The notes under the pieces: model-generated
Databases searched by the model: none
The model's input: only the letters and a program-made list of their open reading frames with translations
Told to the model about the DNA's origin: nothing
In this document: piece by piece, positions 12,203-63,503 of the stretch
Numbering within the stretch: the first letter of the stretch is position 1
Layout: every line of letters begins with the position of its first letter
Program-made: the position numbers and the translations under genes
Source of the DNA: a virus
Lineage: Duplodnaviria; Caudoviricetes
Strand: one strand, 5' to 3'
Length of the DNA stretch: 64,000 nucleotides
Virus record (IMG/VR): IMGVR_UViG_3300014059_000005
Location: 75,666-139,665 of that record

Positions 12203-12457
12203 TCATGGTGATGTGGGCGTGCTAGATTGTGAGGGGTTGAAAGGGGATAAGGGGCTGGGATCTTCGGGTCCTGGCCCCTTATTATTTGTCTTTCTGAGGA
12301 CAAGACGAAATCCGTAGTAGTCGGAGAGTGCCCTTGACACATTGTAGTTGCGATAGCAAGAGTAGGCGTTCGATGGTTGATAGGATAACGCACCGCCTCG
12401 GAGCAACCGGAACGGTCTCTGAGTGAGAATCGGTTTGGGTCTTGCGATAAGGATCAT
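12203..12457 (-). CDS. CLec/FGE C-terminal variable micro-gene 1 (C-terminally extended)
   Basis: MILIARPKPI...RLLRGG...YGFRLVLRK. Confidence 0.75.
   Translation of the reverse strand: MILIARPKPILTQRPFRLLRGGALSYQPSNAYSCYRNYNVSRALSDYYGFRLVLRKTNNKGPGPEDPSPLSPFNPSQSSTPTSP
12247..12282 (+). terminator. UUCG-capped hairpin, probable terminator at the convergence of the two transcription units
   Basis: ataaggggctgggatc-ttcg-ggtcctggccccttat. Confidence 0.6.
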
Positions 12458-12630
12458 GGTATTCTCTTGCGGAGAATTATCCGGAAGCCCAAGAAGTCGA
12501 TCCGGTCCGTAGGCCCGGCCCAGTCACGGTTCGCCGACCGACAAGATAGACTGCGGTAGTACCAGCCACCGCCCTGTAGCACCCGGTAGGAGCCATCGAT
12601 GATCGGTCTAGATCTAGCAATCAGGATCAT
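12454..12630 (-). CDS. CLec/FGE variable micro-gene 2 (58 aa; not in ORF track)
   Basis: MILIARSRPIIDGSYRVLQGGGWYYRSLSCRSANRDWAGPTDRIDFLGFRIILRKRIP. Confidence 0.8.
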   Translation of the reverse strand: MILIARSRPIIDGSYRVLQGGGWYYRSLSCRSANRDWAGPTDRIDFLGFRIILRKRIP

Positions 12631-12818
12631 TTATCCCTCTTTCTGAGGATTACTCGAAAGCCCAGACCACCACAGCGAAAACTTTCCGGGTTCCAGATTC
12701 TATGCCACGAACTGGATCGCCAGACCATGCTCTGGAAGCCGCCACCTCGGATGGTATGGGAAACACACTGGGAAGCGATCAGGGACACCAGGGTCCCTGA
12801 TCGCTTCACCAGAATCAC
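12627..12818 (-). CDS. CLec/FGE variable micro-gene 3 (divergent), coupled to the FGE-core stop
   Basis: MILVKR...TIRGGGF...GLGFRVILRKRDK. Confidence 0.75.
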   Translation of the reverse strand: MILVKRSGTLVSLIASQCVSHTIRGGGFQSMVWRSSSWHRIWNPESFRCGGLGFRVILRKRDK

Positions 12819-13822
12819 TGGGAGCCTCCGGACTCTCCAGACTCCCGAAGGGCCTTTTCTGCCGCCTCGACTTCCTTTTTGTACCTCTGGGCATCATAGA
12901 GGCAGGCACACCACTCCCAGACGTTGCCGTGCATGTCGTAGAGGCCAAAGGCATTACAGGGATAGGATCCCACCGGGGTGGTCCGGTTGATCTTCTCATC
13001 GAAGTTGGCCATGTCGTGGGTCAGAGTGCTGCCAAAGGTGTAGGCGCTCCGGGTGCCGCCTCGACAGGAATACTCCCACTCGTACTCGGTGGGTAGTTCG
13101 TAGTAGTATCCCTTGGCGATCTCCTCGGGCAGTTCGGAGAGTTTCTTGCAATACTCCTGGGCGTCGTGCCAGGACACATTTTCCACGGGGTGGCCGGGGT
13201 GCTTGAAGGACGTGGATGGATTGGTGCTCATCACCTTCTCCCACTCCCTCTGGGTAACGGGAAAGGTCCCCATGTACAGACCTTCCATCTGCACCAGGTG
13301 CTGGGGACCTTCATCGGAATGACGATGGGGCTCACTGTCCGGAGAGCCCATGACATTGATGCCGGGAGGAGTGACCTTGAATTCCATGCCGATCGAGTTG
13401 ACGATCCTTGGCATGACCACCGGGACCTTTTCCAGGAGCATGGCCTGGATCTGCTTCTCCACCTCGGGATCGTAGGAATCCGGATCGAGTTGGTTCAGGG
13501 TCATCCGTAGGAGTCGTGCGGATTGCTCCCGACCTTCTTCGATCAGGGCATCGGTGAGGGCAAACCACCCCGTGGTGTCATTGGGGTCGATGGTGAGAGC
13601 GTGCAGGATCGAATCGGTGTCGGTGAAGGCCATAGTGGACTTTCCTTGTGTAAGGGACTTACGGAGAACACGAAAACCAAAGAAGTTGTACCAGTTTGCT
13701 GGTTCACAGGCGTTTCGGTACGTCAACCGGCAATACATCGCAAGAGATAGCCAGCAACCACCTCGAAATATCCGATATGGGGAATCGGGGTATGTTGTTC
13801 GCAAGGTAGTGGTGAGAATCAT
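12815..13822 (-). CDS. TIGR02996-like + FGE-sulfatase (SUMF1/CLec) protein lacking the C-terminal RGG...GFR segment; micro-gene 4 fused in frame at the N-terminus (alternative start 13633)
   Basis: NSIGMEF..PPG..MGS, PVTQREW, HPVENVSWHDAQEYC, LPTEYEWEYSCRGG, NAFGLYDMHGNVWEWC, then a stop; N-terminus MILTTT..RIFRGGCW..CRLTYR..FGFRVLRK. Confidence 0.9.
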   Translation of the reverse strand: MILTTTLRTTYPDSPYRIFRGGCWLSLAMYCRLTYRNACEPANWYNFFGFRVLRKSLTQGKSTMAFTDTDSILHALTIDPNDTTGWFALTDALIEEGREQSARLLRMTLNQLDPDSYDPEVEKQIQAMLLEKVPVVMPRIVNSIGMEFKVTPPGINVMGSPDSEPHRHSDEGPQHLVQMEGLYMGTFPVTQREWEKVMSTNPSTSFKHPGHPVENVSWHDAQEYCKKLSELPEEIAKGYYYELPTEYEWEYSCRGGTRSAYTFGSTLTHDMANFDEKINRTTPVGSYPCNAFGLYDMHGNVWEWCACLYDAQRYKKEVEAAEKALRESGESGGSQ

Positions 13823-13998
13823 TTCTCTTTTTTCTTTCTGAGAGCAACCCGGAAGCCCATGTCGTTGTATCGTAATGTTGGTCTGTACCCGATGCGGTAC
13901 GACGACCTGTAGTTCCGGCCGACGCAGCCCCAGCAACCACCCCGGCTCATCCAGAGGGAACCCTGAATGATCGGCCCAGGTTTAGCAATGAGGATCAT
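13819..13998 (-). CDS. CLec/FGE variable micro-gene 5
   Basis: MILIAKPGPIIQGSLWMSRGGCWGCVGRNYRSSYRIGYRPTLRYNDMGFRVALRKKKEK. Confidence 0.8.
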   Translation of the reverse strand: MILIAKPGPIIQGSLWMSRGGCWGCVGRNYRSSYRIGYRPTLRYNDMGFRVALRKKKEK

Positions 13999-14171
13999 CA
14001 GCCCCTCTTTCTGAGGATTGCCCGGAAGCCCAGGAGGTTGTCCCGGAGCATCGGCACGAGCCTGAGGCAGCGTGCCGACCGGCAGTTCTGGCCGGGGCTG
14101 TACCAGCAGCCGCCCCGGATCACCTGGAAGGAGCCCTGGAGGATCGGTCCAGGTCTAGCGATCAGGATCAT
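13998..14171 (-). CDS. CLec/FGE variable micro-gene 6
   Basis: MILIARPGPILQGSFQVIRGGCWYSPGQNCRSARCLRLVPMLRDNLLGFRAILRKRG. Confidence 0.8.
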   Translation of the reverse strand: MILIARPGPILQGSFQVIRGGCWYSPGQNCRSARCLRLVPMLRDNLLGFRAILRKRG

Positions 14172-14344
14172 CTCGACCTCTTTCTCAGGATCACCCGGAA
14201 GCCCAGATCGTGGTCCCGTTTCGGCGGCACGACCCTGCGGCGGTCCGCCGACCGGCAGTACAGGCCGTGACCGTTCCAGCAGCCGCCCCGGAACACCCGG
14301 TAGGAGCCCTGAATAATTGATTTAGGTTTAGCAATCAGGATCAT
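14168..14344 (-). CDS. CLec/FGE variable micro-gene 7
   Basis: MILIAKPKSIIQGSYRVFRGGCWNGHGLYCRSADRRRVVPPKRDHDLGFRVILRKRSR. Confidence 0.8.
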   Translation of the reverse strand: MILIAKPKSIIQGSYRVFRGGCWNGHGLYCRSADRRRVVPPKRDHDLGFRVILRKRSR

Positions 14345-14526
14345 TTCGATCTCTTTCTGAGGATTGCTCGGAATCCCAGGCCGTTTTCCCGATACGTTGG
14401 TGTATACCTGTGGCGGTACACCGACCGGCAGAACTGGCCGATGTTGACCCAGCAACCACCCCGGATCGTCTGGAACACCCGGTAGGAGCCCAGGGTGATT
14501 GATCCAGGTTTAGCAATCCGGATCAT
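14341..14526 (-). CDS. CLec/FGE variable micro-gene 8
   Basis: MIRIAKPGSITLGSYRVFQTIRGGCW...CRSVYR...LGFRAILRKRSK. Confidence 0.8.
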   Translation of the reverse strand: MIRIAKPGSITLGSYRVFQTIRGGCWVNIGQFCRSVYRHRYTPTYRENGLGFRAILRKRSK

Positions 14527-14708
14527 TAGCCTCTCTTTCTGAGGATTACCCGGAAGCCCAGATCGTCGTACCGGAACGCTGGTCTGTATCCGATGCGGTA
14601 CGACGACCTATAGTTCTCGCCGACGCAGGCCCAACTACCGCCCCGGATCGCCCAGATCACCCAGTGGGAGCCCAGGGTGATAGGTCTAGGTCTAGCAATC
14701 AGGATCAT
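14526..14708 (-). CDS. CLec/FGE variable micro-gene 9
   Basis: MILIARPRPITLGSHWVIWAIRGGSW...LGFRVILRKRG. Confidence 0.8.
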   Translation of the reverse strand: MILIARPRPITLGSHWVIWAIRGGSWACVGENYRSSYRIGYRPAFRYDDLGFRVILRKRG

Positions 14709-14736: not shown

Positions 14737-14766
14737 CAACTATGCACCAGGAATTCGGAAAGTCAA
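14737..14766 (-). promoter_or_regulatory. Repeated phage promoter TTGACT-N16-CATAGT upstream of micro-gene cluster 1
   Basis: One of 13 copies with identical 16-nt spacing. Confidence 0.75.
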
Positions 14767-14785: not shown

Positions 14786-15115
14786 CTACAGCTTCCTGCG
14801 GTTGCGAAGTTCCGCATCCCCACCACAGAAGCGGCACAGCTTGTGCTTCGTGGCGCAATTGGTACAGAGCACATCCACACAGGTGTTGCCATAGTGCATC
14901 TCCGTCTTGCACATTCCACACAGGGCTACGGTACACATGGCACCACCGATACGGCCCCGCATGTAGTGGCAAACCCGGCACATGCATTTCTTCTTGCGGA
15001 TCTCCAGATCGGGATCTTCGTAGCACTTTTTGACAGAATCGTAATATGCCTGTGAATAATTCGTCGCTCTCAAAACGGCACAGAGATCCCAGGGTTTGTA
15101 GATTGGCTCTCGCAT
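14786..15115 (-). CDS. Zinc-finger protein
   Basis: CRVC, CGMC, CTNC, CRFC pairs. Confidence 0.6.
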   Translation of the reverse strand: MREPIYKPWDLCAVLRATNYSQAYYDSVKKCYEDPDLEIRKKKCMCRVCHYMRGRIGGAMCTVALCGMCKTEMHYGNTCVDVLCTNCATKHKLCRFCGGDAELRNRRKL

Positions 15116-15717
15116 GATAATAAACTCTTGCGAATCTTGTTCAGGGCGTTGACATGGGACTGACTCACTGCTGATCGGGACACTCCCAGGCCATCGGCAA
15201 TGTCGCACAGCCGTCTACCCTTGAGGTAGTGTTCTTCCAGTACGAATCGCTGATAGGGCTTCAGGACGGACAGGAGGGACTCACAAAGATCGGCATCGTC
15301 CAGGGTTCGCTTCCAGGAGCAATCGATGACAGGGAGGGCCTTGGGGTCATAGGGGACTCGGGTGGGCAATGGATAGACGACCTTGGCCTCGAAACTGCTC
15401 TTGCTCATGGGATGGTGTAGACTGCGAATATATCGCTGTATCTGGTTGCGGACACTCCTCCAGGCGTAAGTGCCGAAGCGGACCCCATGCCTGGAGTCAT
15501 AGTTCCTGGCACATCTCCAGAGTGCCACATCCGCTACCTGGACCAGTTCCTCGTAATCGAAGCACATCCCCAGGAATCTACCGTATTGGAGTGCCTTCTT
15601 GGCCAGGATTCTGGAGACTCCACGGTTCTCGGACCAGAGTAGTTCGATCCGGAGTCTCTCTTCTTCGGCGGACTTGCTCGTGGATTCTTTCGTGGACTTG
15701 CTCGTGGATTTGCTCAT
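15070..15717 (-). CDS. Sigma-70 family RNA polymerase sigma factor
   Basis: EELVQVADVALWRCARNYDSRHGVRFGTYAW (region 2); HTH LCDIADGLGVSRSAVSQ (region 4). Confidence 0.85.
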   Translation of the reverse strand: MSKSTSKSTKESTSKSAEEERLRIELLWSENRGVSRILAKKALQYGRFLGMCFDYEELVQVADVALWRCARNYDSRHGVRFGTYAWRSVRNQIQRYIRSLHHPMSKSSFEAKVVYPLPTRVPYDPKALPVIDCSWKRTLDDADLCESLLSVLKPYQRFVLEEHYLKGRRLCDIADGLGVSRSAVSQSHVNALNKIRKSLLSCESQSTNPGISVPF

Positions 15718-15960: not shown

Positions 15961-16607
15961 CGGTCTATCTCGTGAGATTCAGAAGATATCTCCGGGGTCA
16001 CATATTCGGTCCCGGAGTCCACAGGTCGGGTACGGACCACGCTGCCCGTTACCAGCCTACGATTGTGGGTCACGAACAGGATCTGGAGTCCTAATTCTCT
16101 GGAGAGAGTCTCCAGGAGGAACCTCACTCGATCCTGGTATTCCTCGGAGACGAAGCGAAAGGGCTCGTCCAGGGCCAGGAATGTTCGTCTCCTGGTTCTG
16201 GATAATAACAGACAGGCCAGCCTCAGGGCAAAGGCACTGACATCGATTACACCACCTCCACAGGACCCCAAGGGGTCCTCGACCTCTCTACCATGATCGA
16301 GAAGGGTGAGTGTAGCCTCGGTGCGGCCACGCTTGTCCTCGAAATCGATTCGCAGGGAATAGGTATCCTTGCCGAATACTGCTTCCAGGCATCTGGAGGC
16401 TATCTCGGAGACTCTACCGTGGCAGGCCTCCTGAACCTGAACCGCAACTTCCTGGGCGATGGAGAGAGACTTTTTCAGGTGTTCCTGCTCCTGGATCAAT
16501 TCCTGGGATCTGGAGGACTCACTGGAAGTATTCTTGATGGCAACCTGGTATTCCATCAGGAGAGGTCGCAATTGATTCCGATAACGATCCAGGGCGGTAG
16601 GCGTCAT
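15957..16607 (-). CDS. SbcC/Rad50-like ATPase, C-terminal half
   Basis: Signature-like SCGGG, Walker B/D-loop LALDEPF, H-loop FVTH; no Walker A. Confidence 0.85.
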   Translation of the reverse strand: MTPTALDRYRNQLRPLLMEYQVAIKNTSSESSRSQELIQEQEHLKKSLSIAQEVAVQVQEACHGRVSEIASRCLEAVFGKDTYSLRIDFEDKRGRTEATLTLLDHGREVEDPLGSCGGGVIDVSAFALRLACLLLSRTRRRTFLALDEPFRFVSEEYQDRVRFLLETLSRELGLQILFVTHNRRLVTGSVVRTRPVDSGTEYVTPEISSESHEIDR

Positions 16608-16780
16608 GAGGTTTTCTTTCTGAGGATTACCCGGAAGTCCAGATCGCTGAACCGGAACGTCGGCTCGAGCCTGCCACGGTACGCCGACCGGCAGTTCCGG
16701 CCGCTGCTGCTCCAGCCGCCGCCCTGGATCACCCGGCCAGAGCCCTGTAGGATCGGCCTAGGTCTAGCGATGAGGATCAT
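16604..16780 (-). CDS. CLec/FGE variable micro-gene 10
   Basis: MILIARPRPILQGSGRVIQGGGWSSSGRNCRSAYRGRLEPTFRFSDLDFRVILRKKTS. Confidence 0.8.
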   Translation of the reverse strand: MILIARPRPILQGSGRVIQGGGWSSSGRNCRSAYRGRLEPTFRFSDLDFRVILRKKTS

Positions 16781-16953
16781 GGTGTTCTCTTTCTCAGGAT
16801 TACCCGGAAGCCCAGGCCGTGGTTCCGAACCGCCGGCACGTACCTGTGGCAGCGTGCCGACCGGCAGTTCTGGCCGGGGCTGTACCAGCCACCGCCCCGG
16901 AACACTGAGAGGGAGCCCTGGATAATTGATCTAGGCCTAGCAATCAGGATCAT
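16777..16953 (-). CDS. CLec/FGE variable micro-gene 11
   Basis: MILIARPRSIIQGSLSVFRGGGWYSPGQNCRSARCHRYVPAVRNHGLGFRVILRKRTP. Confidence 0.8.
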   Translation of the reverse strand: MILIARPRSIIQGSLSVFRGGGWYSPGQNCRSARCHRYVPAVRNHGLGFRVILRKRTP

Positions 16954-17126
16954 TTGTCTCTCTTTCTGAGGATTACTCGAAAGCCCCGGCTAAGATAGCG
17001 GAACGACGCAAAATATCTATAGCGGCGTGTCAATCCACAGGTCCCATAGCAGCTACGCCAACCACCACCCCGATACACTGGTTCATTTCCTTGAATGCCT
17101 GGTTTGGGTCTAACGATCTGGATCAT
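16950..17126 (-). CDS. CLec/FGE variable micro-gene 12
   Basis: MIQIVRPKPGIQGNEPVYRGGGWRSCYGTCGLTRRYRYFASFRYLSRGFRVILRKRDK. Confidence 0.8.
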   Translation of the reverse strand: MIQIVRPKPGIQGNEPVYRGGGWRSCYGTCGLTRRYRYFASFRYLSRGFRVILRKRDK

Positions 17127-17197
17127 CTGTCTTTCTTTCTGAGGATTGCCCGGAAGGAGCCCCAGACAATCGGTCTGGGTTTGTTGATCCGGATCAT
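17123..17197 (-). CDS. 'Empty' micro-gene 13 (variable core deleted in frame, 24 aa)
   Basis: MIRINKPRPIVWGSFRAILRKKDR; both ATGA overlaps retained. Confidence 0.7.
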   Translation of the reverse strand: MIRINKPRPIVWGSFRAILRKKDR

Positions 17198-17376
17198 TTC
17201 ATATTCTTTTTCAGGATCAACCGCAATCCAAAGTTGTTGAACGTGGTTTGTGGAATGTACCCAACACGCCTGGCCGCTCGGCAGGGCCATTCATAGTTGA
17301 ACCAGCCGGCCCCCCGAACCATGAGTTCTCGGCCCCGAAAGATCGGTCTAGGTCTAGCGATCAGGATCACGATCAT
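17194..17376 (-). CDS. CLec/FGE variable micro-gene 14
   Basis: MIVILIARPRPIFRGRELMVRGAGW...CRAARR...FGLRLILKK. Confidence 0.8.
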   Translation of the reverse strand: MIVILIARPRPIFRGRELMVRGAGWFNYEWPCRAARRVGYIPQTTFNNFGLRLILKKNMK

Positions 17377-30097: not shown

Positions 30098-30372
30098 TTC
30101 TTTCCTTTCTTGGGTTCTGGGGATTCCTCGAACATCTCGAACTGTTCCAGGAACTCTTTCTGAGTGATAACCCAGCGCAGGGCGGAATCTGGACGGTTGA
30201 GCCAGCGAGTATGGAATACCACCAGGGGCTCCAGATCGGACTCTCTCAGAGCAAGTTCACAGATGCGGTAGACCTTACTACAGACATTACCATCTCTGGA
30301 TTTCTCCCTCCAGAGCCTACCTCTGGGAATCTGATTCTGGAGATTCAGAAGTTCTTCTACGGTTTCTGGCAT
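30094..30372 (-). CDS. Small DUF1653-like protein
   Basis: YRICELALRESDLEPLVVF...WVITQKEFLEQFE. Confidence 0.45.
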   Translation of the reverse strand: MPETVEELLNLQNQIPRGRLWREKSRDGNVCSKVYRICELALRESDLEPLVVFHTRWLNRPDSALRWVITQKEFLEQFEMFEESPEPKKGKK

Positions 30373-30554
30373 GGATTCCTAGCCTGTTGTTTTCTCAGGA
30401 TTACCCGGAAGCCCAAGTAGTTGAACCTGTACAACGATACGACCCTATGGCGGTCCGCCGACCGGCAATATTGGCCGAAGTTGAACCAGCTGCCGCCTCG
30501 GAGCACCCGATCAGAGCCTTGAATAATCGGCTTCGGTCTAGCAATCAGGATCAT
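30357..30554 (-). CDS. CLec/FGE variable micro-gene 17
   Basis: MILIARPKPIIQGSDRVLRGGSWFNFGQYCRSADR...YLGFRVILRK. Confidence 0.8.
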   Translation of the reverse strand: MILIARPKPIIQGSDRVLRGGSWFNFGQYCRSADRHRVVSLYRFNYLGFRVILRKQQARNPCQKP

Positions 30555-30727
30555 GTCGTTCTCTTACGAAGGACAAGTCTCAATCCCACAAGGACAGATA
30601 CTCCATCAGGCACAAACCAGCAACGGTACGCCGAACGGGTCCAATCTTCGTTTGATGGGCGGCTACCGCCTCGGAGTATGGGCTCGACTCCCTGTAAGAT
30701 CGGTTTGGGCTTTGTTATCAGGATCAT
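30551..30727 (-). CDS. CLec/FGE variable micro-gene 18
   Basis: MILITKPKPILQGVEPILRGGS...TRSAYR...VGLRLVLRKRTT. Confidence 0.8.
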   Translation of the reverse strand: MILITKPKPILQGVEPILRGGSRPSNEDWTRSAYRCWFVPDGVSVLVGLRLVLRKRTT

Positions 30728-30900
30728 GATACTTTCTTTTTGAGGATTACTCGAAATCCCAGATCGCAGGACGAGGGCAGTGGCTCGTTCCCGTAGCGGA
30801 GCGATGACCGGTAACTCAGAACGAAGTCGTACCAACTACTGCCCCGGATCACCCAGAGGGAGCCTGAGATGATCGGTCTAGGTCTGGCAATGAGGATCAT
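30724..30900 (-). CDS. CLec/FGE variable micro-gene 19
   Basis: MILIARPRPIISGSLWVIRGSSWYDFVLSYRSSLRYGNEPLPSSCDLGFRVILKKKVS. Confidence 0.8.
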   Translation of the reverse strand: MILIARPRPIISGSLWVIRGSSWYDFVLSYRSSLRYGNEPLPSSCDLGFRVILKKKVS

Positions 30901-31079
30901 GGTGTTCTCTTGCGGAGAATGATGCGGAGGCCCAGGAAGAAGCCCGGGCCTGTCGGATCATACCCATAGCGGTCCGCCGATCGGCAGAACCGGCTGTACC
31001 CGTACCAGCTACCGCCCCGGAACACTCGGGACAGATTTTCTGACCCGATCATCTTGTTGATATTGGATATCGTAATCAT
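30897..31079 (-). CDS. CLec/FGE variable micro-gene 20
   Basis: MITISNINK...RVFRGGSWYGYSRFCRSADR...LGLRIILRKRTP. Confidence 0.8.
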   Translation of the reverse strand: MITISNINKMIGSENLSRVFRGGSWYGYSRFCRSADRYGYDPTGPGFFLGLRIILRKRTP

Positions 31080-32242: not shown

Positions 32243-32431
32243 TCACTGAGGTTGAATTGGATGTTTCTTTCTGAGGGCAATCCGGAAGCCCAGGTTGTAG
32301 AACCGAACTGTCGGCTCGAACCTGTTGCGGTTCGCCGACCGACAGCGTCCACCATAGAAGATCCAGCCGCCGCCCCGGTACACCCGGTCGGTGCCCCGGT
32401 TGATAGGTCTAGGTCTAGCGATGAGGATCAT
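32243..32431 (-). CDS. CLec/FGE variable micro-gene 21
   Basis: MILIARPRPINRGTDRVYRGGGW...CRSANRNRFEPTVRFYNLGFRIALRK. Confidence 0.8.
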   Translation of the reverse strand: MILIARPRPINRGTDRVYRGGGWIFYGGRCRSANRNRFEPTVRFYNLGFRIALRKKHPIQPQ

Positions 32432-32607
32432 TTCAATCTCTTTCTTAGGGCAACCCGGAAGCCCAGATAGTTGTCCCGATTCGACGGCACGAGCCTATCG
32501 CGGTACGCCGACCGGCAGTACCAGTTGTCGTAGCTAGACCAACTGCTGCCCCGGAACATCCGGTAGGAGCCCAAGGTGATAGGTCTAGGTCTAGCGATCA
32601 GGATCAT
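32428..32607 (-). CDS. CLec/FGE variable micro-gene 22
   Basis: MILIARPRPITLGSYRMFRGSSWSSYDNWYCRSAYRDRLVPSNRDNYLGFRVALRKRLK. Confidence 0.8.
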   Translation of the reverse strand: MILIARPRPITLGSYRMFRGSSWSSYDNWYCRSAYRDRLVPSNRDNYLGFRVALRKRLK

Positions 32608-32780
32608 TTATCTCTCTTTCTCAGGACAACACGGAAGCCCAGATCGCTGAACCGGAACATCGGACCATTTCTAACGCGGGGCGACAACCGGCAGTACAGG
32701 TCGCCGCTGACCCAGCCACCGCCCCGAAACACCCGGTAGGGGCTCTAAATGATCGGCTTAGGTTTAGCGATCAGGATCAT
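32604..32780 (-). pseudogene. Micro-gene 23 with an in-frame TAG at codon 12 (32745-32747)
   Basis: MILIAKPKPII*SPYRVFRGGGWVSGDLYCRLSPRVRNGPMFRFSDLGFRVVLRKRDK; many other copies have CAG here. Confidence 0.75.
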
Positions 32781-32791
32781 GTGGATTCCTC

Positions 32792-33394
32792 TCAAGCTCC
32801 CAGACCGGCCCCGTCATGGTATCGGAACAACCCACAGGCAAGCAGTTTGCCCCGTGACGCCTCGATGGTGGCACTGACGGCCTGCGGGGACACCCCCAGC
32901 ACCTTCGCCGTCTCGATCATGGATCCGGTCCCCGTCGGGCCGTAGACGGACCACATGATCTGGTACTGGCGTGGGGTCAGGGTGGCCTCGATCCTTTCCC
33001 ACAACTCTTCCAGTTCGATCTTCGATCCCGGCCTTTCGTTTGCCAGCAACCACCCCAAAGAGTCCCCCTCGATGCTCTGGCAGCTGAGTCTTCGTATCTG
33101 CTCCCGGAGTGACTCCTTGGTGTGCTGCTCCGGGATGTGGATGATCGTTCGCAGTACACTCGCCTCCCTGCGGAGACCCCTTTCCATCCAGACGGTGGCA
33201 TACGTCGAGAAGGCGATTCCCCGCAACGGGTCCCACTTCTCGGCCGCACGGATCAGGAGTAGCGTGGCGATCTGCACCAGGTCGTCCATGTCGTTCTCGT
33301 CCTGGCAAGCCCACCGCCCGAACCTCTGGGCTGCCGCGTGGGCCAGTCCCAGGTTCCCCTCGATCAACCTGTTCCGATGCTCGACGTCGCTCAC
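32792..33394 (-). CDS. Sigma-70 family sigma factor
   Basis: RNRLIEGNLGLA, DDLVQ...AAEKWDPLRGIAFSTYATVW, HTH ETAKVLGVSPQAVS. Confidence 0.85.
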   Translation of the reverse strand: MSDVEHRNRLIEGNLGLAHAAAQRFGRWACQDENDMDDLVQIATLLLIRAAEKWDPLRGIAFSTYATVWMERGLRREASVLRTIIHIPEQHTKESLREQIRRLSCQSIEGDSLGWLLANERPGSKIELEELWERIEATLTPRQYQIMWSVYGPTGTGSMIETAKVLGVSPQAVSATIEASRGKLLACGLFRYHDGAGLGA

Positions 33395-33570
33395 CGCTCC
33401 AGCCTCCGCTTCAGAATCAACCGGAAGCCCCGACCACTACTCAGATATATCGGGGCAACCAATAGACGACTCGCCGATCGAACATACCGGCTATTGTTGC
33501 TCCAGTAACCACCCCGGATCACCTGGTGGGAGCCCCTGAGAATCGGTTGGGGTCTAGGGATCAGGATCAT
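33391..33570 (-). CDS. CLec/FGE variable micro-gene 24
   Basis: MILIPRPQPILRGSHQVIRGGYW...VRSASR...RGFRLILKRRLER. Confidence 0.8.
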   Translation of the reverse strand: MILIPRPQPILRGSHQVIRGGYWSNNSRYVRSASRLLVAPIYLSSGRGFRLILKRRLER

Positions 33571-33703
33571 GGTGTTCGCTTTCTCAGGGCCAGTACCCGT
33601 CGCGGTAGGCGGACCAGAGGATCCCACCGACCCAGCCACCCCGGAGCACCCGAGACGAGGCCCCTACAACGACGATGTTTTTCGGTTTAGATATCAGGAT
33701 CAC
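33567..33703 (-). pseudogene. Micro-gene 25, truncated by an out-of-frame deletion (stop at 33584)
   Basis: VILISKPKNIVVVGASSRVLRGGW...SAYRDGYWP*; the residual CTGAGAAAG tail is out of frame. Confidence 0.65.
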
Positions 33704-33885
33704 GGGACCTTCTTTCTCAGAACCAGCCGGACCCCGTAGTCGCGGACCCGGAAGTCCGGCTCGATCCAGTTGTGGAAGGCGGACCGGCAATACCTTCCGT
33801 AGAGGCAGCTACCGCCCCGGAGCACGCGAGCCGAGGCCCCGACCAGGGTAACGGTTAGCGGTGATCTGACGATGGTAAACTTCAT
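33700..33885 (-). CDS. CLec/FGE variable micro-gene 26
   Basis: MKFTIVRSP...GASARVLRGGSCLYGRYCRSAFH...YGVRLVLRKKVP. Confidence 0.8.
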   Translation of the reverse strand: MKFTIVRSPLTVTLVGASARVLRGGSCLYGRYCRSAFHNWIEPDFRVRDYGVRLVLRKKVP

Positions 33886-39539: not shown

Positions 39540-39731
39540 TCACCGTGCTGGGGAATTCATTGGAGATTTTCGCAGAGCGATACGGAAGCCCAGGAGGCTG
39601 TACCGGAACGACGGCCCGCTCTTGTCGCGGTACGCCGACCGGCAGTCCCGGCCGAGGCTGCGCCAGCCACCGTTCCGGACCACCCGGTCGGAGCCCCGAA
39701 TAATCGGTCCAGGTTTAGCAATCAGGATCAT
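39540..39731 (-). CDS. CLec/FGE variable micro-gene 27
   Basis: MILIAKPGPIIRGSDRVVRNGGW...CRSAYR...LLGFRIALRK. Confidence 0.8.
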   Translation of the reverse strand: MILIAKPGPIIRGSDRVVRNGGWRSLGRDCRSAYRDKSGPSFRYSLLGFRIALRKSPMNSPAR

Positions 39732-39901
39732 TTGTCTCTCTTTCTGAGGATTACCCGGAAGCCATCATAATACTCTCCACTCCTTGGCCTCTCCCCGTAG
39801 CGATTACTAGAGCGAGTGTTGCCACCACCACGCCAGCCCGTACTCCGAAGCACACGGGTGGTTCCCTGCAAGATCAGTCGAGGCCTGACTATCAGTATCA
39901 T
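39728..39901 (-). CDS. CLec/FGE variable micro-gene 28
   Basis: MILIVRPRLILQGTTRVLRSTGW...DGFRVILRKRDK. Confidence 0.8.
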   Translation of the reverse strand: MILIVRPRLILQGTTRVLRSTGWRGGGNTRSSNRYGERPRSGEYYDGFRVILRKRDK

Positions 39902-42887: not shown

Positions 42888-42917
42888 CAACTATGCCACA
42901 CTTTTTGGGGAAGTCAA
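42888..42917 (-). promoter_or_regulatory. Repeated promoter TTGACT-N16-CATAGT
   Basis: Motif copy. Confidence 0.75.
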
Positions 42918-43684: not shown

Positions 43685-43714
43685 CAACTATTGCACAGAT
43701 TTTCTGAAAGTCAA
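43685..43714 (-). promoter_or_regulatory. Repeated promoter TTGACT-N16-AATAGT
   Basis: Motif copy. Confidence 0.75.
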
Positions 43715-45070: not shown

Positions 45071-45100
45071 CAACTATGCCCCAGGAATCAGAAAAGTCAA
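45071..45100 (-). promoter_or_regulatory. Repeated promoter TTGACT-N16-CATAGT
   Basis: Motif copy heading the MKRF cluster. Confidence 0.75.
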
Positions 45101-53864: not shown

Positions 53865-54140
53865 CTAGTTCTCGGCTGCCGTCAATCGAGTACCTGGACC
53901 GGAGTAGGTACGGATCGAGGGAACCAGACCGAACCAGGCTGGTAGCATTCCCCGGACATTGATGTTACCGCTCTCTTCCAACCAGTCGTGTACTGCCATG
54001 AAGCCCGTGTAGTCGGTGTCATAGCAGTACGCCGCCTGGAGGATGTAGTTGGGGGCCTTGATGTAGGCCAGGGCCGAGAGAAGCCACATAGTTTCGTTCC
54101 TTGTCTCGTTCCTTGTCGAATTCGTCTCGGGAACACACAA
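53865..54140 (-). CDS. Small TIGR02996-like protein (start possibly 54089)
   Basis: DYTGFMAVHDWLEESG. Confidence 0.45.
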   Translation of the reverse strand: MCVPETNSTRNETRNETMWLLSALAYIKAPNYILQAAYCYDTDYTGFMAVHDWLEESGNINVRGMLPAWFGLVPSIRTYSGPGTRLTAAEN

Positions 54141-54167
54141 CTATTGCACGCGAAAACCAAAAGTCAA
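54138..54167 (-). promoter_or_regulatory. Repeated promoter TTGACT-N16-AATAGT
   Basis: Motif copy. Confidence 0.75.
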
Positions 54168-55536: not shown

Positions 55537-55566
55537 CAACTATTGCACAGGTTTCGCCAAAGTCAA
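55537..55566 (-). promoter_or_regulatory. Repeated promoter TTGACT-N16-AATAGT
   Basis: Motif copy. Confidence 0.75.
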
Positions 55567-58699: not shown

Positions 58700-58888
58700 T
58701 CATTTCTTCCGTAGGATTAGCCGGAATCCCTGGAATTCATGCTGAGAATCCTGGTGGTCGCTTAACCGTAGGGAGGATCTGGGGATGCGTAGGGGAGGCG
58801 CGATATCCGTCCAGGCGGATCCACGAATACTAGACGTGGATTCTGCACAGACAACGACCAGAGGTTTGGGCCTGGCAATGAGAATCAA
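58700..58888 (-). CDS. CLec/FGE variable micro-gene 29 (divergent, TTG start)
   Basis: LILIARPKPL...IRGSAW...QGFRLILRKK. Confidence 0.7.
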   Translation of the reverse strand: MILIARPKPLVVVCAESTSSIRGSAWTDIAPPLRIPRSSLRLSDHQDSQHEFQGFRLILRKK

Positions 58889-59061
58889 GGTGTTCTCTTT
58901 CTGAGGATGACTCGAAAACCCAAACAACTGAGGTAGAAAGTATCGCTGGTCCAGTAGCGGAATGACGCTCTACAGTTGAAATCAGTACTGAACCAGCAAC
59001 CGTTACGGATGATCCTTTCGTAGCCCTGGAGAATTGGTTTAGGCTCGATGACCAGGATCAT
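58885..59061 (-). CDS. CLec/FGE variable micro-gene 30
   Basis: MILVIEPKPILQGYERIIRNGCWFSTDFNCRASFRYWTSDTFYLSCLGFRVILRKRTP. Confidence 0.8.
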   Translation of the reverse strand: MILVIEPKPILQGYERIIRNGCWFSTDFNCRASFRYWTSDTFYLSCLGFRVILRKRTP

Positions 59062-59961: not shown

Positions 59962-60046
59962 GGCAGGGGGGCGAGCCTGCCCGTGAGTTGATTGGGCGAA
60001 CAAACAACTATTGCATACTTTCCGAGGTTGTCAAATCCGAACGACT
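59962..60046 (-). promoter_or_regulatory. ~85-bp promoter-leader module, copy 1 (TTGACA-N16-AATAGT plus GGCAGG/CCTGCC hairpin)
   Basis: Closely similar to 60600-60683. Confidence 0.75.
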
Positions 60047-60599: not shown

Positions 60600-60683
60600 G
60601 GCAGGGGGCGAGCCTGCCCAGGGATTGGTTGGGCGAACGAACAACTATTGCACACTTTCCGAACTTGTCAAATCCGAACGACT
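60600..60683 (-). promoter_or_regulatory. ~85-bp promoter-leader module, copy 2
   Basis: Closely similar to 59962-60046. Confidence 0.75.
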
Positions 60684-61092: not shown

Positions 61093-61923
61093 CTAATCAA
61101 CAGGTTCCGTCTCCAGGATGTAGCCACCATGTGGACTACTCGACCGTGTTACTCGTACCTGTCCATGCCCCACGGGCAGGGGAACCTCCAGCTTGCGGAA
61201 GATGGCCGCTTTGGCATCCACCAGAGGGGCGACGATGCTACCGTACTCCCCCACCAGCAAACCGCCCACGATGCCCGAGGTATTGAGTTGGCTCAGATTG
61301 TCCACCAACCAGTTACGCTGGGCCTGAGATACCCAGAACAGATCCCCAGATAGGTTACTGTTGATGGCTCCAATAGCATCCCGTATCTGCCGCATCTGGG
61401 ATAGTGTGGAGGACAGAACTTCCGACTCTCGATACACCCGGAGAAGTTCGTCCAGGTTCAGTAGTTGCTGCTCCAGGGTTTCCCTCTTGCGCATCTCCTG
61501 TGGGCTCAGTTCTGCCAGATCCAGGAGATCGGCAGGAGAGGGAACATTCCGGACGACTGCCGGGGTTGGGGCCACCGGCTCTGGTGTAGGGATGTTCAGA
61601 GGCACTTGCGGGATGCGAGCCCGGATATCTTCCTTGATCTCCTCTACCACGGGGGCAGGAGGTTGCCCCATGATGGCGTAGTAGTGTTCCTGGATCTCCT
61701 GTTTTTCCTGCTCCGTTCTGGCATCCCGCATCTTGCTGTACTTGCGGGACCGTAACAGGAAGATATCGACCTCTGCGATGGGATCCAGGCCGAAGAACCG
61801 TTTGGCGGCTACGCAAGCGTCTTCTCCATCCACCCGCTGGAAGGTGGATGGGGTCGTTGCCATCCCCTCCTGGACCTTCCTGCGGGGGATGTGGCCGTAG
61901 TAGTGGCGATCGCGGTCGATCAT
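61093..61923 (-). CDS. Hypothetical protein
   Basis: 276 aa, ATGA-coupled to micro-gene 31. Confidence 0.6.
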   Translation of the reverse strand: MIDRDRHYYGHIPRRKVQEGMATTPSTFQRVDGEDACVAAKRFFGLDPIAEVDIFLLRSRKYSKMRDARTEQEKQEIQEHYYAIMGQPPAPVVEEIKEDIRARIPQVPLNIPTPEPVAPTPAVVRNVPSPADLLDLAELSPQEMRKRETLEQQLLNLDELLRVYRESEVLSSTLSQMRQIRDAIGAINSNLSGDLFWVSQAQRNWLVDNLSQLNTSGIVGGLLVGEYGSIVAPLVDAKAAIFRKLEVPLPVGHGQVRVTRSSSPHGGYILETEPVD

Positions 61924-62102
61924 GTACTGATCCTCTTACGAAGAATGATGCGGAATCCTCGATCATCGTCCCGGGATCTGGGACCGAAGGCACTACGGAA
62001 ATAGGCTTGTCGGGGATAACTGGTCAAAACGAACCATCCATCCCCTCGGGTTACTCGGTAGCTACCCAGGATAATCGGTTTGGGCTTTGCTATCAGGATC
62101 AT
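61920..62102 (-). CDS. CLec/FGE variable micro-gene 31
   Basis: MILIAKPKPIILGSYRVTRGDGW...RGFRIILRKRIST; first gene after a promoter. Confidence 0.8.
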   Translation of the reverse strand: MILIAKPKPIILGSYRVTRGDGWFVLTSYPRQAYFRSAFGPRSRDDDRGFRIILRKRIST

Positions 62103-62126: not shown

Positions 62127-62156
62127 CAACTATGACACATGATCCTGAGAAGTCAA
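62127..62156 (-). promoter_or_regulatory. Repeated promoter TTGACT-N16-CATAGT
   Basis: Motif copy. Confidence 0.75.
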
Positions 62157-63112: not shown

Positions 63113-63142
63113 CAACTATGCACTACGTTTTCCAGGAGTCAA
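63113..63142 (-). promoter_or_regulatory. Repeated promoter TTGACT-N16-CATAGT (leftward)
   Basis: Motif copy. Confidence 0.75.
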
Positions 63143-63243: not shown

Positions 63244-63477
63244 GTGCAAGTCAAGATCGAGCCTACTCTGGACCCACGATTCCATGTTGTCGTGGTCCTG
63301 GAATCCGACAATCTGGGGCGCATAGTCCACCATGGAACTCTGGAGGAATGCCGGGATGCGCAGGATAGGTTCGAGCACTTCCTGGAGGCCTTGCAGACTC
63401 TAAAGGGTCTGACCTCTCCCACCCTGGAATCCGACTGCAAGTGGATCCTGGAAGCAACCTTTCGGGAATCCGTTTGA
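63244..63477 (+). CDS. Small hypothetical protein
   Basis: GAGGAG RBS with GTG start. Confidence 0.5.
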   Translation: MQVKIEPTLDPRFHVVVVLESDNLGRIVHHGTLEECRDAQDRFEHFLEALQTLKGLTSPTLESDCKWILEATFRESV

Positions 63478-63503
63478 CTTTCCAGATACCTATGGCATAG
63501 TTG
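63474..63503 (+). promoter_or_regulatory. Repeated promoter TTGACT-N16-CATAGT (rightward)
   Basis: The only + strand copy seen. Confidence 0.7.

What the first reader, a model, noticed from the sequence alone, without database searches (positions are those of the whole stretch)
12815..13822. Split or circularly permuted FGE scaffold that lacks exactly the segment the micro-genes supply
Seen: the only FGE-domain gene has all motifs up to GLYDMHGNVWEWC, then a short charged tail and a stop; the RGG...GFR segment is missing. One micro-gene (13634-13822) is fused in frame to its N-terminus, and a second ATG (13633) with an AAGGA RBS would produce the bare TIGR02996+FGE core. The gene is embedded in the largest micro-gene cluster, downstream of the promoter at 14737-14766. 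Inference: a two-component binder in which a constant core is completed in trans by any of ~28 intact peptides (fragment complementation), with the long isoform as a self-completed circular permutant. Alternatives: recombination or readthrough joins a cassette to the core; the peptides complement or poison host FGE-domain proteins; or MILIAxPxxIxxGS mimics FGE strand 1 (MxLIPxGxFxMGS), giving a stand-alone mini-domain.
Basis: partly seen in the sequence, partly recalled or inferred. Interest (0 to 1): 0.9.

Follow-up and report, generated by a model that had tools for sequence, protein, structure and literature searches.

The report
Split lectin-fold binder with fragment library
A large phage carries one binding-protein gene that lacks exactly its last, variable ~45 residues, plus about 38 tiny genes that each encode only that missing piece; the same split recurs in unrelated phage-like contigs, which suggests a previously undescribed way to build many binders from one scaffold.

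Summary
Gene 12815-13633 (-) is the only FGE/C-type-lectin-fold gene in this 139.7-kb phage genome. It matches Pfam PF03781 only over positions 7-208 of 255. The ~58-aa micro-genes (29 in the window, 38 in the genome) match positions 211-254.

The truncation is not an error:
- A 64%-identical and a 92%-identical relative end at the same point and carry the same arrays.
- The core evolves under purifying selection (dN/dS 0.08).
- Micro-genes show silent third-position variation at conserved residues (orthologue dN/dS 0.11-0.15).

Divergent contigs show the same split, with the modules as 1-4-module genes beside a core: L092, L093 and L095 (core truncated) and L096 (core end not seen). Other proteins fuse modules N- or C-terminally to a core (L020/L039, P0121, P0133).

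Core plus one micro-protein is predicted to bind: ipSAE 0.93, best control 0.00. This may partly reflect the model's memory of intact FGE folds. The micro-protein alone is predicted to be disordered.

The genome has no reverse transcriptase and no serine or tyrosine recombinase, and related contigs show no rearrangement.

Best reading (0.55): one constant scaffold is completed in trans by any of dozens of variable fragments. Self-completion of the 335-aa long isoform is unproven. Earlier scan notes cover this genome only, not other DNA.

The parts
14739..14766 (-). Promoter of the core operon: sigma-70-like -35 and extended -10, one of 23 near-identical copies in the genome
13819..14708 (-). 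Five chained micro-genes upstream of the core (14526-14708, 14341-14526, 14168-14344, 13998-14171, 13819-13998), joined stop-to-start by ATGA or TGATG overlaps
13634..13822 (-). Divergent module copy fused in frame to the N-terminus of the core (long isoform, 335 aa). Identical in L089, absent in L001
13643..13647 (-). AAGGA ribosome-binding site 9 nt before the internal ATG 13633
   Evidence: read directly from the sequence
12815..13633 (-). Truncated core gene (272 aa): weak TIGR02996-like helical N-terminus plus FGE/C-type-lectin fold that lacks its last module
12863..13375 (-). Partial FGE-sulfatase domain (Pfam positions 7-208 of 255)
12830..12892 (-). Charged amphipathic tail helix after the WEWC motif. 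It is conserved in L001, L089 and P0121. Residues 250, 254, 255, 258, 259 and 262 are predicted to touch the micro-protein
12815..12818 (-). GTGA overlap of the core stop with the start of the next micro-gene (ATGA in L001), implying translational coupling
12627..12818 (-). Downstream coupled micro-gene of atypical subtype (63 aa, no CRSA motif)
12772..12807 (-). Perfect 15-bp hairpin with a 6-nt loop starting ~8 nt after the core stop (RNA fold z = -5.3)
12203..12630 (-). Last two micro-genes of the operon (12454-12630, 12203-12457). The tail of the last one runs through a 17-bp terminator-like hairpin at 12246-12283
16604..17376 (-). Micro-gene cluster (4 copies)
22939..23303 (-). Micro-gene cluster (2 copies, one with an atypical N-terminus)
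30357..31079 (-). Micro-gene cluster (4 copies)
32243..32744 (-). Micro-gene cluster (2 copies plus one N-terminally truncated copy without a start codon)
33391..33885 (-). Two micro-genes (one atypical)
39540..39901 (-). Micro-gene cluster (2 copies)
58700..59061 (-). Micro-gene cluster (2 copies)
61920..62102 (-). Single micro-gene directly behind a copy of the same promoter motif (62129-62156)

Best explanation
The locus encodes a naturally split, non-enzymatic binding protein of the FGE/C-type-lectin fold.

The 272-aa core supplies the constant ~80% of the domain plus a clade-specific tail helix. Each ~58-aa micro-protein supplies the last ~45 residues. This is the segment that carries the catalytic cysteines in formylglycine-generating enzymes and forms the hypervariable ligand-binding region in targets of diversity-generating retroelements (DGRs).

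A micro-protein is unfolded on its own. It folds onto the core and completes the beta-sheet, so one core gene and 38 module genes could yield up to 38 binders that differ only at the binding surface. This costs about 7 kb of DNA instead of about 38 kb.

The core operon is transcribed from a sigma-70-type promoter shared with 22 other sites in the genome, and its genes are translationally coupled.

Shown here: the anatomy, its conservation, the selection on both parts and the recurrence of the split. Inferred: physical complementation (prediction only), simultaneous expression, and a role as a binder repertoire. The ligands are unknown. I guess host defence or surface molecules, because the nearest intact relatives are a large Planctomycetota/Gemmataceae family of TIGR02996-FGE proteins.
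For: 1. Complementary boundaries. The core matches PF03781 positions 7-208 and the micro-genes match 211-254 of 255. Intact relatives are ~325-335 aa, which equals 272 + 58. Solved FGE, PvdO and TvpA structures align only to the first ~75% of their length.

2. The truncation is conserved and selected. P0002 (64% identity, contig L001) and L089 (92%) stop at the same point with a similar tail. Core dN/dS is 0.08 at dS 0.63.

3. The micro-genes are coding genes. Conserved residues have ~0 entropy at codon positions 1-2 but 0.9-1.7 bits at position 3 across 33 paralogues. Orthologue dN/dS is 0.15 and 0.11. They have start codons, purine-rich sites upstream of the start and chained ATGA overlaps.

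4. Recurrence. L092 has 13 modules in four genes next to a 153-aa core cut after the same motif. In L093 and L095 the truncated core is overlapped by a four-module gene. L096 has nine modules upstream of a core. L020/L039, P0121 and P0133/P0189 fuse 3-11 modules to a core. All four module-only proteins whose DNA I could read lay within ~1.1 kb of a core.

5. Complex prediction of core residues 70-271 with micro-protein 13998-14171 gave a score of 0.93, best of 3 controls 0.00. That mark was reached by 58 of 80 solved complexes and by 2 of 110 mismatched pairs. The runs agree in at least 97% of contacts and the partner pLDDT is at least 87. Because these are halves of a known fold, the pass may come from likeness to solved intact FGE structures.

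6. The micro-protein alone is predicted unfolded (pLDDT 56, pTM 0.14).

7. The core stop overlaps the start of the next micro-gene in both the window and L001.
Against:
- The complex prediction cannot separate true trans-assembly from the model rebuilding a fold it knows.
- Stoichiometry is odd: 38 module genes for one core. Most module genes are scattered among replication genes, far from the core.
- The core alone is modelled confidently without a module, so it may not need completion.
- Several modules are degenerate or lack starts.
- The N-terminal hydrophobic motif that is conserved in this clade has no counterpart in intact domains, and its role is unexplained.
- Proteins made only of tandem modules show that modules can exist without a core in the same chain.
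Confidence: 0.55

Rival explanations
1. The micro-proteins act mainly on host proteins. They mimic the variable C-terminal module of the host's many TIGR02996-FGE (or other lectin-fold sensor) proteins and either poison their folding or serve as decoys. The phage core is itself a decoy that plugs into the host pathway through its TIGR02996-like N-terminus.
For: The nearest intact relatives (45-50% identity) are a very large Planctomycetota/Gemmataceae family; over 7,000 relatives scored E <= 1e-5. Host modules resemble the micro-proteins closely. The operon uses a sigma-70-type promoter shared with the small-gene region at the genome start and lies among non-structural genes. FGE-type domains are proposed invader-binding effectors of bacterial conflict systems (PMC7159879).
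Against: An intact host domain already holds its own module in cis, so a free peptide competes poorly. This model does not explain why a truncated core is kept under strong purifying selection next to module genes in at least four divergent lineages, nor the translational coupling between core and module.
Confidence: 0.15
2. The micro-proteins are autonomous mini-domains: the first strand of the fold joined to its last segment. They work without any core, and the truncated core has an unrelated function or is a remnant.
For: Proteins consisting only of 3-4 tandem modules exist.
Against: AlphaFold2 gives no fold for the micro-protein alone (pLDDT 56, no secondary structure). This is weak evidence for a 57-residue chain with 42 aligned sequences. 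Module-only genes elsewhere lack that N-terminal motif, and every one I could read lies beside a core (truncated in L092, L093 and L095). The core is under purifying selection.
Confidence: 0.1
3. The modules are DNA cassettes. Recombination or gene conversion places one behind the core to make an intact gene, as with pilin or VlsE silent cassettes or shufflons. Alternatively, a frameshift or readthrough at the core stop fuses the downstream module.
For: Close relatives differ by cassette content. L089 has a hybrid of two window cassettes and a different cassette after the core, with homology breaking near the core's 3' end. The downstream module lies in the -1 frame in three lineages, and a strong hairpin follows the stop.
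Against: - Every cassette keeps its own start codon, ribosome-binding site and a selected N-terminus.
- The conserved ends vary freely at third codon positions, so there are no long identical DNA tracts.
- All copies are co-oriented.
- The complete genome has no serine or tyrosine recombinase and no reverse transcriptase.
- Seven contigs of the L001 lineage, from different samples, are collinear with no joined form.
- There is no slippery heptamer at the stop, and in-frame readthrough meets a second stop after two codons.
- A fusion would insert ~58 residues where intact domains have ~30.
Confidence: 0.07
4. The copies are products or templates of a diversity-generating retroelement (variable or template repeats diversified by adenine mutagenesis).
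For: The modules correspond to the segment that DGRs diversify, with the same fixed scaffold residues. Other viral contigs show intact FGE genes with one extra short copy.
Against: There is no reverse transcriptase in a genome that CheckV rates 100% complete. Third positions of conserved codons vary as much as those of variable codons. Differences between orthologues are mostly transitions at all four bases and largely synonymous.
Confidence: 0.03

Closest known systems
Variable proteins of diversity-generating retroelements with the FGE/C-type-lectin fold (e.g. Treponema denticola TvpA, PDB 2Y3C; Bordetella phage Mtd)
   Same: Same fold: 2Y3C matches by sequence (E 1e-13) and by structure (TM 0.41/0.49). 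Diversity is concentrated in the same C-terminal ~45 residues, on the same fixed scaffold residues. Both occur in phages.
   Different: There is no reverse transcriptase, template repeat or adenine signature. The variable segment is a separate polypeptide. Diversity is hard-coded as dozens of genes rather than generated by mutagenesis.
Host-type TIGR02996-FGE proteins of Planctomycetota/Gemmataceae (~330 aa, function unknown)
   Same: 45-50% identity over the whole core. Same N-terminal helical region and same module sequence pattern.
   Different: They are single intact chains. The phage version is cut after the WEWC motif, has gained a charged tail helix, and has its module multiplied 38-fold as separate genes.
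Autonomous glycyl-radical 'spare part' proteins (E. coli GrcA/YfiD, phage T4 Y06I). From my own knowledge; lead from scan note e1-3945226
   Same: A small stand-alone protein homologous to the C-terminal segment of a larger protein is thought to replace that segment in trans.
   Different: There the large protein is intact until damaged, and there is one spare part. Here the core is constitutively truncated and the parts form a variable library.
Shufflons and invertible tail-fibre segments (R64 PilV/Rci, Mu Gin, P1 Cin). From my own knowledge
   Same: One constant N-terminal part is combined with alternative C-terminal segments that change binding specificity.
   Different: Those systems use a site-specific recombinase and inverted repeats and express one form per genome. 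Here there is no recombinase, all copies are co-oriented, and each has its own start.

Membership tests
Pfam PF03781 FGE-sulfatase domain (C-type-lectin-like fold) | Match above the gathering score | tested here: met
   Core scores 132-148 bits against a cut-off of 23.3. Foldseek to PvdO, FGE and TvpA gives probability 1.00.
Pfam PF03781 FGE-sulfatase domain (C-type-lectin-like fold) | Complete domain in one chain | tested here: not met
   The core covers profile positions 7-208 of 255. The micro-genes cover 211-254 at 12-23 bits, at or below the cut-off.
Formylglycine-generating enzymes (catalytic FGE) | Pair of catalytic cysteines in the C-terminal segment (Cys336/Cys341 of human FGE, from my own knowledge) | tested here: not met
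   The core lacks the segment. The 33 aligned micro-proteins conserve only the single Cys of the CRSA motif (21 of 33), with no conserved pair in the loop before it.
Diversity-generating retroelement | Reverse transcriptase in the element | tested here: not met
   No PF00078 match at E <= 10 in the 139,665-bp genome, which CheckV rates 100% complete.
Diversity-generating retroelement | Template/variable repeat pair differing at template adenines | tested here: not met
   Third-position entropy is as high in conserved codons as in variable ones. Orthologue differences are mostly transitions at all bases.
TIGR02996 (repeat-companion domain) family | Match above NCBIfam cut-off | tested here: inconclusive
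   18.1 bits against a cut-off of 29.05. Full-length relatives that align over this region are named TIGR02996 family by JGI.
Shufflon / invertase C-terminal switching | Site-specific recombinase and inverted cassettes | tested here: not met
   No PF00239 or PF00589 match. Within each region all copies share the strand of the flanking genes.
Programmed -1 frameshift fusion | Slippery heptamer before a downstream structure | tested here: not met
   A strong hairpin is present, but there is no X XXY YYZ site before the stop (read directly). L001 shows no such hairpin by eye and was not folded.

The most novel reading that the evidence does not exclude
This is a protein-level combinatorial diversity system. 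A single constant lectin-fold scaffold completes its fold with any one of dozens of genome-encoded variable fragments. That would give a phage an antibody-like repertoire of binders without mutagenesis or DNA rearrangement. In the fused relatives (3-11 tandem modules on one core, before or after it), one chain could fold in alternative registers, each showing a different binding site.
Probability: 0.4. Interest if true: 0.92.

Novelty: categorically new. Interest (0 to 1): 0.85.

Why it matters
If the core and the micro-proteins assemble as predicted, this is a third route to binder diversity on the lectin fold. The known routes are retroelement mutagenesis and DNA cassette switching. Here the variable tip is an exchangeable subunit.

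It would explain a puzzling class of tiny phage genes and of 'partial FGE' tandem-module proteins in metagenomes. It would show how a size-limited genome can encode tens of specificities cheaply.

It would also offer a ready-made natural split scaffold for protein engineering (a constant core with plug-in 45-residue binding modules). The hypothesis is directly testable by simple co-expression.

Tried and rejected
No RNA or read-level test was possible, and read laying was not used.
- Alignment for the N-terminal fused module: MAFFT placed the micro-proteins either on the C-termini of intact relatives or inside the core (A4 and A5). The long-isoform fold therefore ran with only three sequences over that part (A6). 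Its low confidence there is not evidence against docking.
- The genome search could not reach the records of L092 or L001, so core and module counts for those whole contigs are unknown.
- DGR reading: rejected. My attempt to show template/variable pairs in other IMG/VR FGE loci was inconclusive, with an adenine fraction of 0.2-0.63. I therefore do not claim those loci are DGRs.
- Frameshift or readthrough at the core stop: rejected from the sequence.
- Link between the genome's stem-loop family (27-nt loops) and the cassettes: loop 10-mers hit the genome only at chance level and never in micro-genes or the core. The neighbouring ORF has no recombinase match.
- P0039 (194 aa, truncated) lies in a bacterial contig among fragmented genes and looks like a pseudogene, not a member of this system.
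- The word-indexed search with the micro-protein profile found only 9 stand-alone relatives, so single-module micro-genes are rare outside this phage clade.
- Paper searches found no description of such an architecture.

Full report
**What the window is**

The window is bases 75,666-139,665 of a 139,665-bp IMG/VR virus record that CheckV rates 100% complete. It carries phage replication genes: family-A DNA polymerase, DnaB-like helicase, ThyX, a RecA-like protein, a clamp-loader ATPase, an SNF2 helicase, an Mre11-like phosphoesterase and a sigma-70-family factor. It has no tRNAs. The genome has no reverse transcriptase and no serine or tyrosine recombinase.

**The observation**

- The - strand ORF from ATG 13822 to the stop at 12815-12817 encodes 335 aa.
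- Pfam PF03781 (FGE-sulfatase) matches it at 148 bits, but only over profile positions 7-207 of 255. The 272-aa form from ATG 13633 matches positions 7-208.
- The match ends just after the WEWC motif. About 30 mostly charged residues and a stop follow.
- A whole-genome scan finds this single core and otherwise only short matches to profile positions 209/211-254.
- Those short matches are the micro-genes of about 58 codons. They have a conserved hydrophobic N-terminus, the RGG-W, CRSA-R and GFR scaffold motifs, and a basic C-terminus.
- I count 25 canonical, 3 atypical and 1 fused copy in the window, and 38 in the genome. All run in the direction of the neighbouring genes.
- Core and micro-genes are therefore complementary to within two or three profile positions.
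- Residues 1-63 of the long ORF are a divergent module copy. Its ATG overlaps the stop of the preceding micro-gene.
- ATG 13633 has AAGGA nine bases upstream.

**The truncation is not a private error**

The nearest relative in 5.8 billion proteins, P0002 (64% identity), ends at the same point with a similar charged tail. Intact relatives are 325-335 aa, which equals 272 + 58. Sources name them TIGR02996 family or Gemmataceae/Planctomycetota FGE-family proteins.

P0002 lies on a 17.5-kb contig (L001). That contig also has a sigma factor, a Cys-rich protein and at least 21 micro-genes, and a micro-gene start overlaps the core stop.

A closer relative, L089 (core 92% identical), has the same gene order: ATPase, sigma factor, Cys-rich protein, four micro-genes, the 335-aa fusion, then further modules.

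Between the window and L089 the core has dS 0.63 and dN/dS 0.08, like the sigma factor (0.08). The truncated core is a selected gene.

**The micro-genes are real genes**

- Across 33 paralogues, the conserved residues have almost no variation at codon positions 1 and 2 but 0.9-1.7 bits at position 3. Variable columns vary at all three positions. This is the signature of selection on the protein. It also means the conserved ends are not long identical DNA tracts.
- Orthologous pairs give dN/dS of 0.15 (window against L089) and 0.11 (L001 against L005). The differences are mostly transitions at all four bases.
- The basic C-terminal codons double as the purine-rich ribosome-binding site of the next gene.
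- Cassette content does change over evolutionary time. L089 carries a hybrid of two adjacent window cassettes and a different cassette after the core, and L005 is a mosaic of L001.
- Seven contigs of the L001 lineage, from different samples, are collinear with no joined core-cassette form.

**The split recurs in divergent lineages**

An exhaustive profile search with the micro-gene alignment mostly hit the C-termini of ordinary FGE domains. It also hit proteins built of tandem modules. Reading their contigs gave the following:

| Contig or protein | Arrangement |
|---|---|
| L092 (86-kb contig with Mre11/SbcC-like genes) | 13 modules in four genes of 3-4 modules, then a 153-aa core cut just after the same motif |
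| L093 | Core ends shortly after the motif and is overlapped by the start of a four-module gene |
| L095 | 162-aa divergent truncated core overlaps a four-module gene; neighbours are DUF3987 and SNF2 |
| L096 | Nine modules in five ORFs upstream of a core |
| P0133, P0189 | One core followed by 8-11 modules in a single chain |
| P0121 | Four modules, a core with a similar charged tail, then five modules |
| L020, L039 (IMG/VR) | One ORF with four or three tandem modules in front of a core that stops exactly at the module boundary; only ~10 residues link the last module to the first strand of the core |

By contrast, 101 of 121 FGE ORFs in the IMG/VR loci I fetched are intact. Multi-copy modules linked to a core that lacks its own module are therefore a rare but recurrent architecture. 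It is not an accident of one phage.

**Structure predictions**

Complex prediction of core residues 70-271 (60-row alignment) with micro-protein 13998-14171 (42-row alignment) gave a score of 0.93, best of 3 controls 0.00. That mark was reached by 58 of 80 solved complexes and 2 of 110 mismatched pairs. The runs agree in at least 97% of contacts and the partner pLDDT is at least 87.

- About 258 contacts involve nearly the whole peptide.
- The closest pairs put the GFR phenylalanine and the strand before RGG against the WEW strand.
- Tail residues 250, 254, 255, 258, 259 and 262 also touch the peptide. That spacing fits one face of a helix.
- The core's invariant Cys190 and micro-protein residues 30-38 are both in the interface. 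From my own knowledge, Cys190 is the equivalent of human FGE Cys235, and the CRSA cysteine of the micro-protein is the equivalent of its disulfide partner Cys346.

Caveat: these are two halves of a known fold, so the pass may reflect likeness to solved intact FGE structures rather than evidence that the two chains assemble.

AlphaFold2 on the micro-protein alone gave pLDDT 56, pTM 0.14 and no secondary structure. This fits folding upon binding, but it is weak evidence for so short a chain.

AlphaFold2 on the 335-aa isoform modelled the core well (pLDDT above 90 over most of it) with a long tail helix. It left the fused module (residues 1-59) below pLDDT 50 and undocked. Only three sequences covered that part, because MAFFT would not align the micro-proteins there.

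Foldseek and phmmer place the core with PvdO, FGE, pFGE and the DGR protein TvpA, aligning to about three quarters of each.

**Expression context**

The site at 14739-14766 is one of 23 copies of a strongly conserved promoter motif: a sigma-70-like -35 element, 16-17 nt, then an extended -10. The copies are oriented with the genes and are densest in the small-gene region at the genome start. Copies sit directly upstream of at least four micro-gene clusters.

The operon runs from this promoter through five micro-genes, the fusion/core and three more micro-genes to a 17-bp terminator-like hairpin at 12246-12283. I infer transcription by host RNA polymerase together with non-structural genes, which fits an intracellular role better than a virion role. 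This is inference only.

**Rivals**

- Action on host FGE-family proteins (poisoning or decoy) remains possible. It does not explain the selected, coupled, truncated core.
- A stand-alone mini-domain is disfavoured by the fold prediction and by the co-occurrence of cores with module-only genes.
- DNA cassette switching is disfavoured by the start codons, the selected N-termini, the absence of identical DNA tracts, the absence of a recombinase and the absence of joined forms.
- Frameshift or readthrough fusion is disfavoured by the absence of a slippery site and by a second in-frame stop.
- A DGR is excluded as far as a complete genome without a reverse transcriptase allows.

**Comparison with what is known**

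The system works on the same fold and the same variable segment as DGR targets. It resembles shufflons in combining a constant part with alternative C-terminal parts. It resembles the GrcA/YfiD spare-part proteins in trans replacement of a C-terminal segment.

It fails the defining tests for each of those. Neither the papers I could search nor the scan's notes on other genomes describe it. All earlier scan notes on this feature are first-reader notes on overlapping windows of this same genome, and none had been followed up.

**Verdict**

The main interpretation is supported as far as computation allows (confidence 0.55). The circular-permutant reading of the long isoform is open. The architecture itself is new.

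Noticed in passing
window 14739-14766, 42890-42917, 43687-43714, 45073-45100, 54140-54167, 55539-55566, 60007-60034, 60644-60671, 62129-62156, 63115-63142, 63474-63501; twelve more upstream of the window: There are 23 copies of one highly conserved promoter-like motif (TTGAC[TA], 16-17 nt, [CA]ATAGT, with conserved flanks), all oriented with the downstream genes. Seven of them lie in the first 3.3 kb of the genome. This is probably the phage's host-polymerase promoter class.
   Followed up: partly
window 12772-12807; L089:3664-3725; genome 10599-10657 and 12833-12887 (outside the window); window 24596-24648 and 25518-25789: A family of stem-loops closes with GGAC...GTCC around loops of exactly 27 nt. 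Two units sit directly upstream of micro-gene clusters. A 15-bp hairpin with the same closing bases but a 6-nt loop follows the core stop, and L089 has a 15-bp stem with a 33-nt loop at the same place. Loop 10-mers have no non-chance targets in the genome.
   Followed up: partly
window 14786-15208 (-); L001:6214-6579; L089:1435-1857: A Cys-rich protein with many CxxC pairs, probably a zinc ribbon, has no Pfam assignment that I tested. It keeps its place between the phage sigma factor and the micro-gene array in all three related phages.
   Followed up: no
L089:2117-2302 compared with window 14168-14526: L089 has one cassette that joins the N-terminal part of window micro-gene 14168-14344 to the rest of 14341-14526. 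This is an unequal-crossover product that removes one cassette. L089 also has a different cassette after the core.
   Followed up: partly
L020:6668-7861 and L039:9503-10546 (IMG/VR contigs of 65 and 38 kb): Single ORFs carry four or three tandem modules in front of an FGE core that stops exactly at the module boundary. They look like naturally circularly permuted multi-module forms, in a different FGE subfamily.
   Followed up: partly
window 12203-12457 (-): The last micro-gene of the operon has a 26-residue Pro/Ser-rich extension. Its coding sequence runs through the bidirectional terminator-like hairpin at 12246-12283.
   Followed up: no
window 13634-13998 compared with L089:2472-2836: The fused module and the micro-gene before it differ by 0-1 base between the two phages, while the adjacent core has dS 0.63. 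This indicates a recent recombinational exchange of that segment.
   Followed up: no
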